Position numbers and translations under genes: made by a program
Assembly: GCF_038025025.1 (NCBI RefSeq)
Contig: NW_027117338.1
Span: 1,612,001-1,676,000 of the forward strand
DNA from: Phyllosticta citribraziliensis
Lineage: Eukaryota
Length of the DNA stretch: 64,000 bases
Direction: 5' to 3'
Shown here: piece after piece, positions 4,321 through 53,662 of the stretch
Position numbering within the stretch: position 1 is the stretch's first letter
Layout of the letters: each line of letters starts with the position of its first letter
The notes under the pieces: model-generated
Databases searched by the model: none
Seen by the model: the letters and a program-made list of their open reading frames with translations, nothing else
Told to the model about the DNA's origin: nothing

Positions 4321-4619
4321 TCAATTGCCTTGGATATCCTGCGTGGCTCCCAGGCAATCCTTCTTCAAGTGGCCGACCTTGCCGCAGGTGAAGCAAGAAC
4401 GACGAGGGCACTTTCTCTTGATGTGGCCGATCTCTCCGCAAACGAAGCACGCACGGTAGTTAGGGCCATTTTTAACAACCGCGTTGGAGGCTGTACGGAA
4501 GGTAGTGGTCTAATCCCCACCTTCGGATTCGCGCTCAGCAATGAATGCTCCTTGGGTGTTTGGGCTTTTTGATGCGGCTATCGTGAACGAGATGGACGCT
4601 TTTGCCTTAGTGGACCCAT
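4321..4619 (-). pseudogene. Decayed gene or gag-like remnant with two tandem CCHC zinc knuckles
   Basis: Minus strand 4449-4354 reads [32 protein letters not shown]. The frame is closed by TAG at 4510-4512 and TGA at 4321-4323, with no in-frame ATG. An intron-like segment lies at 4637-4693 and an out-of-frame ATG at 4619. Confidence 0.6.
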
Positions 4620-4840: not shown

Positions 4841-6730
4841 TCATTCCAGCTTCCCGAGCCTCTTCATCCTGACAAAATCATCCATCTTCTCGCGGGTCAA
4901 GTAGTGCCTTCTGACTACTTCAGGCTTGATATCGCCCTCAAGCGCGGAATCCGTCAACGGCCTCGCCACCATGCGGGCGAATTCGCATAGCTCCCGAACC
5001 TGCTGGATGGTCAAATCCTCACCGTCGTCGCGCATCACCACAACGCTCCCGATGATGCCGTAGTGAGCCTGCCATTGCGGTGGTGGCCAGCCCCAACCGT
5101 CGCTCGATGTATCGTGGAGTTGATGAAGCAGCAGCGTCGCCTCCGGGTTGAAAGTCTCAGTCTTTTGATCGCCATGCTCGCGCACCACGCGACGCAGGTG
5201 GAGCGGCATGTCGACGAGCTGCGAAATGTGAGAGGCGTGGTAGGATTTAGACGAGGGCACTTTCGAGCAACAGTAGGTCGCCGCGTCGGTCACTGGCAAC
5301 ACAACGTGCTTGAATTTGGCAGAGCCACCGTGAAGGTCGCCTTCGCAGGCGATGCGCACGCACTGGACGGTGCTCTTGTCGTCAGTCGTTGGGGGGCTTG
5401 TTTTCTTCGACTCTTCGTCATCGCCCTGTTCGCCGAGAATGCTCTCGTCGTCGGTCGTTGGGAGGTTTGTTTTCTTCGACTCTTTGTCATCGCCCTGTGC
5501 GCCGAGAATGCTCTCGTTGTCGGTCGATGGGGGGCTTTCATCACCCCCTTCGCCGAAAATTCTCTTGTCGTCAGTCGTTGGCGGGTTTGTTTTCTTCGAC
5601 TCTTTGTCATCGCCCTGTTCACCGAGAATGTTCTCGTCTTCAGTCGATGGGGGGCTTTCATCATCCCCTTCGCCGAAAAGGCTTTTCGGTTGCTTGTCAT
5701 CGTCCCCGTCGCCGAAAAGGCTCTTCGGCTGCTTAACATCCTCCCCGTCGCCGAAAATACTCTTCGGTTGCTTGACATCCTCCCCGTCGCCGAAAATACT
5801 CTTCGGTTGCTTGACATCCTCCCCGTCGCTGAAAATGCTCTTCGGCTGCTTGGCATCCTCCCCTTCGCCGAAGATACTCTTCGGTTGCTGGACATCCTCC
5901 CCATCGCCGAAGATACTCTTTGGTTGCTTGACATCCTCCCCATCACCGGAAATGCTCTTCGGTTGCTTGGCATCCTCCCCTTCGCCGGAAATGCTTTTCT
6001 GTTCCTTGCCATCGTCCTCGTGGTCGGAAATGTTATCGCTGAGGACAAGTTTGCGGAAGTCGGCAGCAAGGTCAAAGTTCGACTCGAAGGGCTTCGAAGG
6101 GAGCAGGTAGCTATGGTCCTTGTAGACTGGATTGCCGAATGCGATCAAGAAGTCGATAATGTCCAGGTAGTCCCTAGCCTCTATGTCTCCATAATCCAGC
6201 TCATCTGGAGTGAAACCGATCTTCTTCAAGAAAATGACTGGACCCTTGAAGTCGTAGAAGTTGCGGACGTCGGTCGCCTCACGGACGCTGTAGTTGATTG
6301 TATTACGTTCGCAAAAGTTGACGACGAGGGTGTGTTTCAGATCACGGTCGCGGCGGACGTTGCGTTGAAACCCAAGGCCGCTGACGGCGTCTTGGGTGCA
6401 TGCCAGGAAATCAGCGATCGTGCGAGCGGTAGAAAGGCGCGTCTTTCCTTCATCATCCGGGTCCTGCATGCGTTGAGTTTCAAGCCAGACAAGGCGTGGC
6501 TTCTCATCGTCGGGCTTGAAAAGGATGGCGCGCTTGAAGTCGCCCTCCGGCCGCTCGAGATTGTCCACGACTTGAGAGCAAATGTTTTTGTGGCTCTTCC
6601 AATCAGAATGTTGGCACTTCTTGCAGCAGTAGGCGACAGAGTGGCAAGCCGAGCAAAGACGTCCTTCCGAGTGAAGACATATCAGGCAAGGGTCTGGCGG
6701 TCCTGACGGAGGAGACTGCTCGTCGGCCAT
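4841..6730 (-). CDS. MYND zinc-finger protein with acidic internal tandem repeats (629 aa)
   Basis: N-terminal CLIC..CSACHSVAYCCKKCQHSDWKSHKNIC is a zf-MYND signature. Single long ORF. Confidence 0.85.
   Translation of the reverse strand: MADEQSPPSGPPDPCLICLHSEGRLCSACHSVAYCCKKCQHSDWKSHKNICSQVVDNLERPEGDFKRAILFKPDDEKPRLVWLETQRMQDPDDEGKTRLSTARTIADFLACTQDAVSGLGFQRNVRRDRDLKHTLVVNFCERNTINYSVREATDVRNFYDFKGPVIFLKKIGFTPDELDYGDIEARDYLDIIDFLIAFGNPVYKDHSYLLPSKPFESNFDLAADFRKLVLSDNISDHEDDGKEQKSISGEGEDAKQPKSISGDGEDVKQPKSIFGDGEDVQQPKSIFGEGEDAKQPKSIFSDGEDVKQPKSIFGDGEDVKQPKSIFGDGEDVKQPKSLFGDGDDDKQPKSLFGEGDDESPPSTEDENILGEQGDDKESKKTNPPTTDDKRIFGEGGDESPPSTDNESILGAQGDDKESKKTNLPTTDDESILGEQGDDEESKKTSPPTTDDKSTVQCVRIACEGDLHGGSAKFKHVVLPVTDAATYCCSKVPSSKSYHASHISQLVDMPLHLRRVVREHGDQKTETFNPEATLLLHQLHDTSSDGWGWPPPQWQAHYGIIGSVVVMRDDGEDLTIQQVRELCEFARMVARPLTDSALEGDIKPEVVRRHYLTREKMDDFVRMKRLGKLE
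5370..6020 (-). repeat. Coding minisatellite: ~9 x 39 bp (KQPKSIFGDGEDV) plus 69/120-bp higher-order units
   Basis: GCCGAA-type unit starts every 39 bp from 5672 to 5984. TTGTTTTCTTCGACTC recurs at 5398, 5467 and 5587. Confidence 0.95.
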
Positions 6731-7216
6731 GGTGTGGGCTTGGTGGCGATGAGAGGTGGCTCAAGGGCTCAGATAAAAAGAGATTGTCGCTGTTGACTTT
6801 GATTGGTCAGCATCGGCCGTTGTCAGAGCAGAATGGGAGGATGTTTGTGGTGAGAAGAAGGTGAGGAGTTGGACTATATTTGACTGAAGAGTGGAGCGTT
6901 CGAAGGACCAACCTTGAGCAAGAGGAAAATACCACAGGGCCCCTCAAGTGAAGAGTGCAGCCACTGCTGTGAGATAGCCGATGTGTCTGTATTGTAGTAA
7001 GCAACGATATCATGTGTTTACGGTTGCCAAACCTCTGACAAGTCGCGAGAGAAAGGGTTTGTTGTCTATCCTCAAAAAGGAAAGAAGCTTGTTAAATCAC
7101 CAGGACGCGCTTTCCCCGCCCTCTCTTGCCACGAACGACGGAAATTCAAAAGGTAAGAAACTCTAACAAGTCTATGTATTCACTGATGCTCGACGAGAAA
7201 ATGCAGGCCCAATGAA

Positions 7217-9123: not shown

Positions 9124-10544
9124 GACTGCTTTGTAGGAGACGAAACTTTGCACAACGAATAGAAATTACGAGACAGAATGAGACGCAAGCAGTGTGACGA
9201 GAAGGTGGAAACTGAGTATGCAAGAGCATTCAAGATAACCATTCCGCAAGTCGGACCTAGAAGTAGTTGAGGGACTGTGCATCACTTCTCCACAAAAAGT
9301 GCGGCTTACCCCCGCATTCCCCAGACGCCATCACTCTCCAGAGTACGCGAGTTGCCGCATCATCAACAAAGACGTGTCTCCTGTATGGCTGGAACTTTCC
9401 ACTCTTGGCGGATCGCTGCCTCTTCTAGATAGATGTCCGCAGCTGTGGCTGCAGCGGGGGAGCCGCCGGGGCTCAATTGACACAATGTGCCGTGAAACCT
9501 AACCGTGGTCGTTGACGTATCCGCCTAAGCAGAGCTACCCCGAGGTCGACAAGGAGGAAAGATATCCGAGCAGTTCGACCGAGACCCGAGCTCTTGAATG
9601 CCTGACGCAGCAGGAAGGAAAAGCCATCTTCAAGTGATGATTAGCTCTTTTCCCGATTGCGGTGGAGCAAGTGATGCGCAGCGTGCGGTCCTTGGAAATG
9701 AGGTCAAACAAAGGGGCCGGTCTCGCAGAGTTGTGGTGTTTGTCTTAAGTAAAGGGATGAAACGAGGAAAAAACAAGGTGAGGCAACTTTTAGGGATCTC
9801 GGGCTGTGATACCCCCGCACTTGGCAGATGAGCTTGACTCTTCCAGCGCTCTCACAGAGGTCTTCGGCCAGACCCACATCCTGACCCGCACGGGCATATC
9901 CGCTATTCAGTTCCAGGCAAGAGATGCCCGGAGCAAGGCGCCACTGGAATCATCCGAATCCTCAACAAGAAACGCAATAGGCAGGTCAAATTGCTCTGAT
10001 TGGGCGTGCCCGGTCTGCTCGTATCTTGCATTCAAGGAGAGTCCGGCGATGGCAGTGTCGAGGATCGATGTCAATTTTCTCGGTGTTAAATCGATTAGAG
10101 TCTCGGTGTCTTTGGAAGTAGCAACCATCGGTATAGCGGTTCTGGAGAAGAATGGGTCTCGTCTTCAAATCGCGACAATCCAATCAACAAATGCCGCAGT
10201 GGAACATGAGGATCATTGTCCATCTTTGGATATTGTCGTCTCTGCGAGATAGCATGAATCCTGGATTCTCAGCGGCCAGCCTCAGAGTAAGAGGGGGCCG
10301 TAAGTTGCGGGATAGGACCGATTTGAGGGAGCAGAGGCAAAAGGTGTGGACGGTCTAGAATCCGGGACTCATCTTTGTCGGTTCCATGATGCATCATCAT
10401 AGCCTATACGGAGTACGCAGAGCGATAATTCTGAAGATGGGGATTGTGCAATGAAACCGAACGCTTGGGCGATTGGTCAACTTTCAGGCAGTCGGAAAAT
10501 CCGAGGACATCTGGCCATGAACAAATGGTCGAGAGAGAGATGAA

Positions 10545-10681
10545 GCGGGGGGCGTTCGTTTACTGCCGCGGTGGCGCCTTGGGAGCAGTCGTCTTCCATC
10601 ACGTATGCGCTCGAGGAATCGTCGCTCGTTTCTGCAGCTGTATAAACCCAGGGAGTCTCATTTCTTTCGACACCCACAGTG
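10545..10681. repeat. Dispersed 33-bp-period array, copy with 4 units (homologous to 52845-52948)
   Basis: Cores end at 10559, 10592, 10625 and 10661. Two blocks match the 52.9-kb copy at 31/41 and 34/36 nt. Confidence 0.8.
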
Positions 10682-11036
10682 CGTCCCTGCTCACTGAAGA
10701 CAGAAAGTAACCTTCGTGGCAACAGGATTGTTTTCATCCGCTGTCGGTGGCTGCAGTGCTGCCTGAGGTCATGGCTCAACATGTACGCGTCCGGCGGTAC
10801 CGGATCCTTTGGTGTCGTCTGAGGTCGAAACAGGCGGCGGAGATGGCTCGCGTCATAATGTACTCTGTGGGTTGGAGATGATTCGTTGCAGAGGTTGATC
10901 GTATCAGATGGGGGACAGGGAGTAGACGAGCTCAGCCAGGCACGCCGGACGCGGTCTGCCAACGTGTCCAAGCTCCGATTCTTAGCACCACCGCAACAAA
11001 CTCCGAAACCTCTCTCGGACAACCGAATCAAACATC

Positions 11037-11489
11037 ATGCGCTTCATCACTCTGATCGCCACTTTCCTCCCGCTTGTCTTTGCTCTGGACAAGCCTCTTC
11101 ACATTGAGGTTACTCACGAGGTCGAGTGCAAACGCAAGACCGTCGCCGGAGACTCGGTTGACGTCCACTATCGCGGCACATTGGAGGATGGCACAGGTAC
11201 ACGAGCGCGTCAATTTGAATGTTTGGTGCAGGCTGACGCAATGATTGCAGAATTCGATGCTTCCTACAATCGTGGCCAGCCGCTCAGTTTCCCAGTCGGC
11301 AGCGGCCGTGTGATCAAAGGATGGGATCAGGGACTTCTTGACATGTGTCCTGGCGAGAAGAGAAAGTTGACAATCCAGCCGGAATGGGCATATGGTTCCA
11401 AGGGCATTGGACCCATTCCCGGAAACAGCGTTCTCATCTTTGAGACAGAGCTTGTGGGTATCAAAGGAGTCTCGAAAGATGAGTTGTAG
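11037..11489 (+). CDS. fpr2: ER FKBP-type peptidyl-prolyl isomerase (Fpr2/FKBP13-like)
   Basis: Signal peptide, VHYRGTLEDG..FDASY, VIKGWDQGL, IPGNSVLIFETEL and C-terminal KDEL. Intron 11197-11250. Confidence 0.93.
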   Translation: MRFITLIATFLPLVFALDKPLHIEVTHEVECKRKTVAGDSVDVHYRGTLEDGTGTRARQFECLVQADAMIAEFDASYNRGQPLSFPVGSGRVIKGWDQGLLDMCPGEKRKLTIQPEWAYGSKGIGPIPGNSVLIFETELVGIKGVSKDEL

Positions 11490-13502: not shown

Positions 13503-13845
13503 ATGTATAGGGTTGTGTTCGCGGGCTTTTTCCATCCATGATACCCAAGACAGGCGGTTTCAAATGAAATTTTGTCAACACCCACGCTATGATCACTATC
13601 GTCATATTGAGACGTGAAGATTGTCGATTTGTAGAAAGGTTCCAGTCTTTTGCGAGATGGATAGGGAGCATTCTTTCCATTCTGGCGATTTTGTAATCAT
13701 GTGATGCGCGTTGGACCCTAGCGCGTCTCGCGTCTGCCTATCGCCAGCGCGTCTCCCGCAACTAACCTTCTACACCCTCCTTCAACCCGAACCCTCGAGC
13801 TCACATTCGACGACGCATCTCGATGACAACATAACCAATCGCACA

Positions 13846-16536: not shown

Positions 16537-16685
16537 TCATTTATTGCGGTTCAGGCGTCGTTGCTAAGTGCGGGTGGGTTGCTTCACGAGTTTGCATGCT
16601 AGCTACATACAGTACGGGGCCAATCGAGCAGAAGATAATGGGTAGAAATTACGACGAACTCAATGAATGTTGCTCTCTATTGCAG

Positions 16686-16900
16686 TTGATGAATGCTCCT
16701 TGGGCTACTAAGTAAAGTAACAGGCGATGGAGCCTCCCAGGACTACACGTCTAGCACCGATTTGACGAATGCTCCCTGAGCCACTGGATATAGTAGCAGG
16801 CGATGAAGCCTCCTAAGACTACGCGTCTAGTCTAGCCGTGAGTTGACGAATGCTCCTTGAGCCATTGAATAGAGTAGCAGGTGATGGAGCCTCTCAGGAC
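16686..16900. repeat. Tandem repeat, 3 x ~76 bp, each a dimer of 38-bp subunits; same core as the dispersed arrays
   Basis: Cores at 16689, 16727, 16765, 16803, 16846 and 16884. The single 43-bp step is a TCTAG duplication. Confidence 0.92.
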
Positions 16901-16912
16901 TCAACAAATTCC

Positions 16913-37200: not shown

Positions 37201-38073
37201 GTGGAATCGTTGTGTCTATCCATCTACAGATGTGTGGGATGCAAGCATCTACTCCGCACTCCGCCGCTGCCCAAGCCCCAGAAGTTCCATCCGTCTAATC
37301 CAGTCTTCACCAACTACTCCTCTTAGCTCTCTTACCGCTCAGTCAATCCTACCTAATTCCTCTTGACCGCCACCAGTGCTGCGGCGGCAGGAGCAGAAAG
37401 AAGCCATCTCACCGACACCGCGGCGCTGCATCGACGTGCAGACAGAGCAGAGCTACGCCTCTACGTCTCCCCCGGCATACTCACCGATGACAATGGTGTA
37501 AATGCACATTGCATCCTTTTTCATGTCCTTTCGCTGTATTTTTCACGCGCATCTCGTTACATTGGTCATGCTTTTGGCCGCCACGTTTTTTTTTTTTTTT
37601 TTGAGTCCACCCCAACGCATTTGTTTCACAGGTCCGGCAGATCTGCCACGAACATGGAATATAGAGAACATTTTGTAGTACAGTATTATTCCAAGCAAGA
37701 TGTCATGTCAGAATGAAAACGTCGCGGCCTTGTACACCGAACACTGCACTGTTGTATCCATGCTCGGTGAAGAGCTTCCATTCAAGGACGGCAATGTACC
37801 ATTTACAGTTGATTCAAAGGACTGCCTACCTTTGACCCTTCTTTTCCAACTCCGTCATCAAACTGTGTGACACTATAATCATAAAGCGTGCGGTGTGAGT
37901 TATCTTTCTACCATTCACGCGCCAATGAGTACTCTCAAGGGCAGGAGAGTCTTCGTCGCTTGCCCGCCGTGATGGCCACGACGCGCGATATGGCAACAAG
38001 GAATACTTCTCGTGGGCGACGTGCGTTCCTTCACCCGTGCCAATCAATCAGGCGTTGGGCAGTGTGCCAATAA

Positions 38074-38155
38074 ACGAATGCTCCTTGTGCGTGGCTGTAT
38101 TCGGGGATGACAGCTTCAGAAACGTGATCAATTTCTCCCATGAGCCCCCCCCATT
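38074..38155. repeat. Degenerate 33-bp-period array of the dispersed family
   Basis: ACGAATGCTCCTTGTG at 38074, ATGACAGCTTC at 38107 and ATGAGCCCCCC at 38140. The first two cores are followed by CGTG, as in the 52.9-kb copy. Confidence 0.55.
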
Positions 38156-51817: not shown

Positions 51818-51917
51818 GCCCGGCTAGCTCAATCGGTAGAGCGTGAGACTCTTACAACACCGATTCAACGGTGATATAGGCATCTCAAGGCTGCGGGTTC
51901 GACCCCCGCGTTGGGCT
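51818..51917 (+). tRNA. tRNA-Lys(CTT) with 27-nt intron
   Basis: Acceptor stem GCCCGGC/GTTGGGC, D arm TAGCTCAATCGGTAGAGC, anticodon stem TGAGA/TCTCA with CTT at 51851-53, intron 51855-51881, T arm GGTTCGA, and a T-run terminator at ~51936. Confidence 0.95.
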
Positions 51918-52844
51918 CAATCCCCGACTACTGTCTTTTTGACCTTTTTGGCCCTGTTTCTATGCATGATGTTGAGTTTTGGTGTTTTTGAGCCAAAACA
52001 TTTTTTTTCGACGCGACACGCGTTTTGAGCACGTTTTTTTGCTCCCCACGGAAAGAGCGAGCATTGGAAAGCATACTGGATTAATTTCGAGCTGATTGAA
52101 CCATTGTTGGGCGCGCGCCGTCGAAGTGATACGCGAGGGCGGATTTTCCCGTGTGTCGGCGATGGCTCGGGACACGGAGCATTTCCGCTGGTTTCCGGAT
52201 TTGGCTAGCTCCCAAATCAAGCTGCAGGCCCTTCTGCACAAGACAAGAAGTTCATGGGACTCGTTGTTCTCTTTTACATGCAATGGTGCTTCACTCAGGT
52301 CGTGGACTAGGCAAATGCTCACAACAGAGGCAGTTTTTGTCGCAACAGCCTCATTGCTTGCGCAAACTCGACATTACGACTCAATTGACTTAGAACCAGA
52401 GGAGATGAGTCCGTCTTAACAGCACCGGACATTCACACGGCATTTGGAATCGAAGCGGAACCCAACTTCATTCATTACAAATTGACCTTTACATGTACTG
52501 CTCGGCTATCGGACATTGTCAAGACGAGGCTCGTTAATGCGAATCTAGAAGCCACTTTCGGGACTCGGGGATCCGAAGTCAGCAAGCCCGTCTTTCAACG
52601 GACAAGGCGGACTGCTTTTCATCGTAGTCGAATTGCGGAAAGGGCGGAATCAGGAAGACTACTGCAGTACTTGCAGAATACATCCCGTCGACGACTTCTA
52701 CCATATCGGTATATTCAGCAGCGTTGCATCCGCGAGAAGGCGACTCATCAAATAAGGAGTTCTTGGCAACAAATACAAGCGATCCAAGAGTTGGGGCACA
52801 GTGGATGTCGAAAAACTGAGATCTTCTGGCAGTAGGAGTGTGCA

Positions 52845-52948
52845 CTTAGGGAGCATTCATTCACTACCGCAGTCACGCTTAGGGAGCAGTCTTTCTTTAC
52901 TGCAGCCAGACCCAAGGAGTCTCATTTCTTTCAACGACACCCACTGTG
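52845..52948. repeat. Dispersed 33-bp-period array, copy with 3 units (homologous to 10545-10681)
   Basis: CTTAGGGAGCA at 52845 and 52878, CCCAAGGAGTCTCAT at 52911, then GACACCCACTGTG. Confidence 0.82.
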
Positions 52949-53662
52949 GGGGACTGAAATCAATGTGGTCGTAGTTCTTTTGAAAAAATGTCGAGGACGA
53001 GCGGAGAAAACCCGAAAGTGAGCTCTTTCGCTCGCCAGTGATACAGAGCTGTACAGTGCTGAAATATCACGCAAGATACTGGACTACTCTGCTGCTCCGT
53101 ATGCAACTTTCACCGACCATTCCCTTGAAGTCAGGTGCGCCCATTAGTGCTCCGTCGGGAAGATTGAAATATACTCTAGCAAAACTCTGAACAAATAGTG
53201 CGTCATCTTCGAGGAGATGAGTTTGGAGTCGGGAGAATCTTGGTAGAGGCGGATTTTTTTTCTGATGCTGGTCTAGACGCGGTTTCCAGACTTGCGCCAA
53301 AGAGTCGTTCGAGGCAGATGCGGAGTCACATTTTGAGCACTGCCGAGTCCATCAGATGGCTTCAAGATGATGATGAAGACCAAAATCAGGACGGCAAAGA
53401 GATTGACCTGGATTAAATGAGAGATGGTGTTCAGAAGCCGGCAGACGCGAAAGAAACAAGGCTGCGGGCCGCATTCCGCTCCGAGCTTCGGGCAGGCGTT
53501 CTCGCTGACGTCACAGCACCGTACCTGGACGCCGCGACATCGTTGCCCTGCAGCTGTCAAGAAACCTGCAAACAAACTTCCATCAGCTCTCAGATCATGC
53601 GAGGACATACCCGGTTGAGAGTCTCATAACCCATCCAACATTCAGTATCCACATCCTCCAAC

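What the first reader, a model, noticed from the sequence alone, without database searches (positions are those of the whole stretch)
10545..10681. Two arrays 42 kb apart share a conserved flank ending in CACWGTG and differ by one unit
Seen: 10646-10681 matches 52910-52948 at 34/36 nt (one 3-nt indel), and 10550-10590 matches 52851-52891 at 31/41 nt, with 8 of 10 differences being transitions. The 10.6-kb copy carries one extra ~33-bp unit between these blocks. Strong similarity stops at the quasi-palindrome CACAGTG/CACTGTG. Inference: a fixed flank plus a variable number of units resembles a DNA-transposon end with subterminal repeats (CACTA/Transib-type ends begin with CAC), or a leader-plus-array unit. 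No second terminus or target-site duplication was found.
Basis: partly seen in the sequence, partly recalled or inferred. Interest (0 to 1): 0.7.

Follow-up and report, generated by a model that had tools for sequence, protein, structure and literature searches.

The report
Two copies of a fungal MITE
The two look-alike stretches are old copies of a small non-coding jumping-DNA element scattered through this fungal genome; this is an ordinary kind of element, and only the enzyme that once moved it is still unidentified.

Summary
The 10.6-kb copy (10520-10681) has a decayed left end and no duplication. The family has 27-bp terminal inverted repeats beginning CACAGTG around 0-5 (mostly 2-4) head-to-tail 33-bp units. 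Exact 4-bp target duplications occur in 34 of 53 two-ended copies (shuffled mean 1.2); 5-bp ones in 0 of 53. Targets are GC-rich and symmetric. Unit number changes in clean 33- or 66-bp steps. The ends fit the CMC/CMCT clade (Chapaev-like), not canonical Transib: no 5-bp duplication, no recombination-signal nonamer. No parent transposase was found, but those searches were weak, so the superfamily stays open. This scan already reported the family on other DNA of this genome (e1-7587714, e1-7587916, e1-7566237). Verdict: new member of a known kind, low interest.

The parts
10520..10681 (+). MITE copy A, 162 bp, three units, short-left-arm type; no target duplication (CATG left, CGTC right)
   Evidence: Aligns end to end without a gap to the 162-bp two-ended element in L044 at 119 of 162; family profile hit 10548-10681, E 7.8e-23
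10520..10546 (+). Decayed left terminal inverted repeat (probable)
   Evidence: 16 of 27 to the family terminus; 14 of 63973 window positions reach that score; it lies exactly where L044 predicts; profile score reached by 2 of 3000 random positions
10547..10579 (+). 33-bp unit 1
   Evidence: In register with units of copy B
10580..10612 (+). 33-bp unit 2
10613..10649 (+).
10655..10681 (-). Right terminal inverted repeat
   Evidence: 26 of 27 to the family terminus; listed among exact matches
52793..52796 (+). Left copy of the 4-bp target duplication GGGG
   Evidence: Sequence
52797..52948 (+). MITE copy B, 152 bp, complete, two units
   Evidence: Profile hit over model positions 1-181 of 181, E 1.5e-33; termini pair in the fold, z -3.6
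52797..52822 (+). Left terminal inverted repeat, begins CACAGTG
52848..52880 (+). 33-bp unit 1
   Evidence: (family D20)
52881..52913 (+). 33-bp unit 2
52919..52948 (-). Right terminal inverted repeat with a 3-nt insertion
52949..52952 (+). Right copy of the 4-bp target duplication GGGG

Best explanation
Both stretches are independent old insertions of one non-autonomous cut-and-paste DNA transposon family (a MITE with internal tandem repeats). Shown: dispersed copies, matching 27-bp inverted termini beginning CACAGTG, 4-bp duplication of a GC-rich symmetric target, and unit number changing in whole 33-bp steps. Inferred: a DDE transposase of the CMC/CMCT clade, supplied in trans by a parent element now lost or not found, paired the two ends, cut the element out and inserted it with a 4-nt stagger. 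Also inferred: the units are tandem expansions of the inner motif of the right terminus and served as extra transposase-binding sites, gained and lost by slippage or unequal exchange. The copies now decay passively in gene spacers.
For: 60 matches on at least 14 contigs with only 40 of 77 candidates scored. 78 terminus matches versus 0 control; 119 versus 11 for the 11-mer. 128 distinct footprints in 109 of 131 fetched loci, which were chosen for holding the family. Left and right terminus majorities identical over 27 nt. 4-bp duplications in 34 of 53, shuffled mean 1.18, maximum 6; lengths 2, 3 and 5-9 at chance. Duplications 74% GC versus 52% in distal flanks; symmetric pattern Y-N-[S-Y-R-S]-N-R, each position met by 25-29 of 34. 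Core spacing of 33 dominates (82 cases; next commonest 31 with 7); last core to right-terminus motif is 33 in 39 of 52. L071/L072 differ by one 33-nt gap at 211 of 215 identity, L006/L010 by one 66-nt gap at 137 of 148. CA..TG ends with 2-5 bp duplications define CMCT (PMC12730594, passages); CAC..GTG with 3-4 bp duplications are Chapaev hallmarks (PMC4079192, passages).
Against: No autonomous partner or transposase was found: six Pfam searches of the own genome gave no candidate, with silent controls. No empty site was seen in four laid runs. 19 of 53 two-ended copies and window copy A lack an exact duplication. The binding-site role of the units is untested. Terminus and duplication length are labile characters that should not override transposase homology (bioRxiv 10.64898/2026.08.26.747230, passages).
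Confidence: 0.9

Rival explanations
1. Non-autonomous Transib or RAG-like element with true recombination-signal ends in an ascomycete.
For: The terminal heptamer equals the RSS heptamer CACAGTG, and targets are GC-rich as for Transib and RAG (PMC1131882, passages). Duplication length varies inside one Transib lineage (bioRxiv 10.64898/2026.08.26.747230). At the left end only, AA falls at nonamer positions 5-6 with a 24-nt spacer in 21 of 53.
Against: 5-bp duplication in 0 of 53. Nonamer AA at 12- or 23-nt spacing in at most 4 of 53 per end; mean nonamer match at 24 nt only 1.9 of 9. RAG1 family search: no candidate, control silent. Transib reported absent from fungi in PMC5751038 and only in soybean rust in PMC1131882.
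Confidence: 0.08
2. A dispersed regulatory or non-coding-RNA module (fixed leader plus array) kept by selection in promoters.
For: Both window copies lie between genes: about 355 bp upstream of an FKBP-like start (name recalled) and about 715 bp upstream of a mitochondrial calcium uniporter gene. The unit core is well conserved, 85-97% at most of its first 12 positions.
Against: Inverted termini plus target duplications are insertion footprints. Many copies are truncated at varied points. No Rfam match at either copy. The fold is explained by the termini pairing.
Confidence: 0.05
3. Old segmental duplication of a decayed gene.
For: None found.
Against: Flanks share nothing beyond chance. Many more than two copies. 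The overlapping 185-codon frame at 10477-11034 has no Pfam match.
Confidence: 0.01

Closest known systems
Chapaev non-autonomous elements (CMC group; PMC4079192)
   Same: CAC..GTG termini and a duplication inside the 3-4 bp range
   Different: Described there from animals (the word 'fung' does not occur in its main text); Chapaev3 makes a TWA duplication, unlike the GC-rich 4-mer here; no transposase to compare
Fungal CMCT lineages: EnSpm, ESTA, Plavaka (PMC12730594); Cryptococcus CNIRT6 and CNEST (bioRxiv 10.1101/2025.05.19.654958)
   Same: CA..TG or CAC..GTG ends and short terminal repeats (24 and 33 bp in CNIRT6 and CNEST)
   Different: Reported duplications are 3 bp (EnSpm), TA (ESTA, CNEST) and 2-3 bp (Plavaka); none is 4 bp in the passages read
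Sly1-1 of Neurospora crassa (CMC element of Pezizomycotina; PMC4592977)
   Same: A CMC transposase exists in filamentous ascomycetes, so a parent of this kind is plausible
   Different: Its terminus and duplication sequences are in a figure and in supplements that could not be read, so no direct comparison was possible
Transib and RAG recombination signals (PMC1131882)
   Same: Heptamer CACAGTG; GC-rich targets
   Different: 4-bp rather than 5-bp duplication; no conserved nonamer
Degenerate fungal MITEs of Epichloe festucae (PMC3227409)
   Same: Short, degenerate, orphan families with many deleted copies near genes
   Different: The duplications listed in the passages seen are TA, AT, TWY or 8 bp (the table was shown in part)

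Membership tests
MITE (non-autonomous TIR DNA transposon) | Short (<500 bp) and non-coding | tested here: met
   95-248 bp in 53 two-ended copies; no Pfam hit in the frame overlapping copy A
MITE (non-autonomous TIR DNA transposon) | Terminal inverted repeats | tested here: met
   27-nt identical majority at both ends
MITE (non-autonomous TIR DNA transposon) | Target-site duplication | tested here: met
   4 bp in 34 of 53, shuffled mean 1.18; present at copy B, absent at copy A
MITE (non-autonomous TIR DNA transposon) | Dispersed, high copy number | tested here: met
MITE (non-autonomous TIR DNA transposon) | Empty orthologous or paralogous site | tested here: inconclusive
   No joint across copy B in 4 runs of contigs; one run other than the top holder has it unchanged
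CMC/CMCT clade | CA..TG ends, 2-5 bp duplication | tested here: met
   definition in PMC12730594
CMC/CMCT clade | DDE transposase with C(2)C and H(3-4)H motifs | tested here: inconclusive
   No candidate for Transposase_21, Plavaka, RAG1 or DUF6589 in the own genome; controls silent
Chapaev | CAC..GTG ends with 3-4 bp duplication | tested here: met
   PMC4079192
Chapaev | Chapaev-type transposase | not testable with these tools
   No query sequence or family model was at hand and no parent element was found
Transib / RAGL | 5-bp duplication | tested here: not met
   0 of 53
Transib / RAGL | RSS-like heptamer | tested here: met
   CACAGTG majority at both ends, 86-100% per position
Transib / RAGL | RSS-like nonamer at 12/23 spacing | tested here: not met
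   AA at nonamer positions 5-6 in at most 4 of 53 at spacers 11-13 and 22-23; 21 of 53 at spacer 24 on the left end only
Fungal EnSpm/CACTA | 3-bp duplication | tested here: not met
   5 of 53, shuffled maximum 6; three such cases are G or C runs that also satisfy 4 bp
KDZ (Kyakuja, Dileera, Zisupton) | 7-8 bp duplication | tested here: not met
   0 of 53; lengths from PMC12730594

The most novel reading that the evidence does not exclude
The family is the footprint of an undescribed CMCT lineage in Dothideomycetes, either a Chapaev-like element outside animals or a Transib-adjacent branch. Its transposase would recognise an exact RSS heptamer, replace the nonamer by phased 33-bp subterminal sites, and make 4-bp duplications at symmetric GC-rich targets. 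An intact parent in a related genome would be a new reference point for the CMC-Transib-RAG tree.
Probability: 0.3. Interest if true: 0.55.

Novelty: new member of a known kind. Interest (0 to 1): 0.22.

Why it matters
Mainly as annotation: a Phyllosticta MITE family with at least 128 footprints that lies in gene spacers and can be mistaken for regulatory arrays. Its signature (CACAGTG ends, 4-bp GC-rich symmetric duplication) was not among the fungal CMCT lineages in the passages read, so it gives a precise probe for finding a possibly uncatalogued transposase lineage in related genomes. Nothing here shows a function for the host.

Tried and rejected
Parent element. Pfam searches of the own genome for KDZ, CxC5, Plavaka, Transposase_21, RAG1 and DUF6589 gave no candidate, but none of their controls rang, so absence is not shown. 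I fetched DNA inside 37 unpaired termini and 39 unpaired 11-mer sites plus one pair (19 of its 119 matches were not listed and not examined). These were short two-ended copies, truncated copies or chance matches, and no long internal DNA was shared between loci. Two termini 4.5 kb apart in L053 are both left-type ends without a matching duplication, and two frames between them have no Pfam hit. Transition-tolerant terminus patterns gave 6 and 43 matches, close to the ordinary terminus; a few new places among them were not fetched. Empty site: none in four runs of contigs; cover was partial and the best holder may be the source sample. RIP: no CpA bias in the termini (C-to-T at CA 16 of 361, CC 25 of 310, CG 11 of 206, CT 10 of 310). 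RNA family: no Rfam hit at either copy. Literature: searches for CACAGTG with fungi, MITE or Chapaev terms and for Phyllosticta with MITE listed nothing describing this family (listings only, and the library lacks most subscription papers and Repbase). Supplements of PMC4592977 could not be read and may bear on the comparison with Sly1-1.

Full report
Setting. The window is G000:C1:1612001-1676000 of a 31.35-Mb, 22-contig genome. Two of six window proteins looked up fall in 90% clusters whose named members are Phyllosticta species; the genus was first suggested by earlier scan notes. Copy A lies between an MFS transporter gene on the minus strand (Pfam) and an FKBP-like gene starting at 11037 (name recalled from the translation). 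Copy B lies between a tRNA at 51818-51917 and a mitochondrial calcium uniporter gene.

Observation. The 2-kb flanks share only one 18-nt hit at E 0.29, so this is not a segmental duplication.

Family. A 136-nt query from copy B gave 60 matches in the own genome, with 40 of 77 candidates scored. A 23-nt terminus pattern with one mismatch gave 78 matches against 0 for the reversed control, and the exact 11-mer gave 119 against 11. A profile found 128 distinct footprints in 109 of 131 fetched loci (669 kb, chosen for holding the family), so this is a lower bound and not a density. From these loci 53 distinct two-ended copies of 95-248 bp passed a terminus filter; window copy B did not pass because of its 3-nt insertion and is not among the 53. 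An earlier, slightly different filter gave 54 copies, one counted twice as a nested pair, with the same 34 duplications. Left and right majority termini are identical over 27 nt. Nearest-neighbour identity is 78-98%, median 88%, so activity was spread over time and no identical young pair was found.

Insertion footprint. Exact 4-bp duplications flank 34 of 53 copies (shuffled pairing: mean 1.18, maximum 6 in 2000 trials). Lengths 2 and 3 are at chance (6 and 5) and lengths 5-9 are 0. The duplications are 74% GC against 52% in distal flanks. The rebuilt target is symmetric, Y-N-[S-Y-R-S]-N-R, with 25-29 of 34 sites fitting each position; this pattern was read from the same 34 sites and has no separate test set. 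A symmetric target suggests a two-fold symmetric DDE transposase complex (inference).

The two window copies. Copy B is complete: 52797-52948, 152 bp, two units, GGGG on both sides. A contig from a run other than the top holder spans 52514-53233 with no difference, and no laid run shows an empty site. Copy A aligns without gaps to the 162-bp element of L044 at 119 of 162, which puts its left end at 10520. That end matches the terminus at 16 of 27, a score reached at 14 of 63973 window positions, while the right end matches 26 of 27. No duplication survives (CATG versus CGTC), so the left boundary is probable and not proven. The CACAGTG/CACTGTG difference is a single change in the right terminus, also seen in L023, L026 and L067. 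Copies A and B differ in left-arm length as well as unit number, so they are not a simple parent and daughter.

Units. Copies carry 0-5 cores, 50 of 53 carrying 2-4, and core spacing is 33 in 82 cases. The last core lies 33 nt before the similar inner motif of the right terminus in 39 of 52 copies, which suggests the array grew from that motif (inference). L071 and L072 differ by one clean 33-nt gap (211 of 215 identical), and L006 and L010 by one 66-nt gap (137 of 148), so unit number changes in whole steps. 33 bp is about three helical turns; phased transposase-binding sites, as recalled for En/Spm subterminal repeats, are the likely but untested role.

Superfamily. PMC12730594 (passages and sections 11, 22) gives CA..TG ends and 2-5 bp duplications for CMCT, 3 bp for fungal EnSpm, TA for ESTA, 2-3 bp for Plavaka and 7-8 bp for KDZ. 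PMC4079192 (passages) gives CAC..GTG and 3-4 bp for Chapaev. PMC1131882 (passages) gives 5 bp, GC-rich targets and a heptamer-nonamer end for Transib. Here the heptamer and GC preference fit Transib, but the duplication is 4 bp and the nonamer is missing: AA at positions 5-6 in at most 4 of 53 at spacers 11-13 and 22-23, and 21 of 53 at spacer 24 on the left end only. PMC5751038 (passages) reports Transib absent from fungi. Against over-reading these characters, bioRxiv 10.64898/2026.08.26.747230 (passages) shows duplication length varying within a Transib lineage. Sly1-1 (PMC4592977, passages and part 1 of section 19) shows that CMC transposases exist in filamentous ascomycetes, but its end sequences could not be seen. 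The element works like a CMCT non-autonomous element; membership of a named superfamily cannot be decided without the transposase.

Parent search. Six family searches of the own genome gave no candidate with silent controls. DNA beside unpaired termini held short or truncated copies or chance matches, with no long shared sequence. Transition-tolerant patterns revealed no heavily mutated termini, and the termini show no CpA bias. Metagenome scans gave no relative.

Prior notes and verdict. The scan had already described this family on other DNA of the same genome (e1-7587714, e1-7587916, e1-7566237, e1-7566651). My reading was formed before that look-up and the counts above are my own. Literature searches listed no description of the family (listings only). 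It is a real, old, uncatalogued MITE family: a new member of a known kind. The only open point of interest is the identity of a parent transposase that combines RSS-heptamer ends with 4-bp duplications in an ascomycete.

Noticed in passing
window 16673-16901: Three 76-81 bp repeats with the same core word as the MITE unit, in the spacer between the 3' ends of a nibrin-like gene and a pyridoxamine-oxidase-like gene; one other copy was found at G000:C14:768976-769312. No terminus of this family was seen beside it.
   Followed up: partly
L132 8100-10000 and L133 1-650 (G000:C14 about 767.1-769.6 kb): A DUF7626 gene flanked on both sides by arrays of the same core word in opposite orientation; no clear termini found.
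   Followed up: partly
window 38064-38129 (-): Weak decayed remnant of the MITE units, profile E 8e-6.
   Followed up: no
window 4540-4559 and 13663-13681: Isolated matches to the unit core; may be remnants or chance.
   Followed up: no
window 4844-6760 (-): Long frame with a MYND finger and 39-, 69- and 120-bp coding tandem repeats that score as Nucleoporin_FG.
   Followed up: no
window 24009-24104 and 51818-51917: Afu_190 C/D-box snoRNA and a tRNA longer than the model (probably intron-bearing), missed by ARAGORN.
   Followed up: no
L011 1094-1422; L096: Nested or composite MITE copies: one element abutting another, and one with an inverted piece inside its right terminus.
   Followed up: no
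L136 (G000:C14:799001-808214): AT-rich (28% GC) contig end with a 600-bp inverted repeat about 4.2 kb apart, probably a mutated unrelated transposon.
   Followed up: no
L139, L141, L143 and many more loci: A repeat family in other metagenome contigs contains the 17-mer internally with a conserved upstream flank; unrelated to this MITE.
   Followed up: partly
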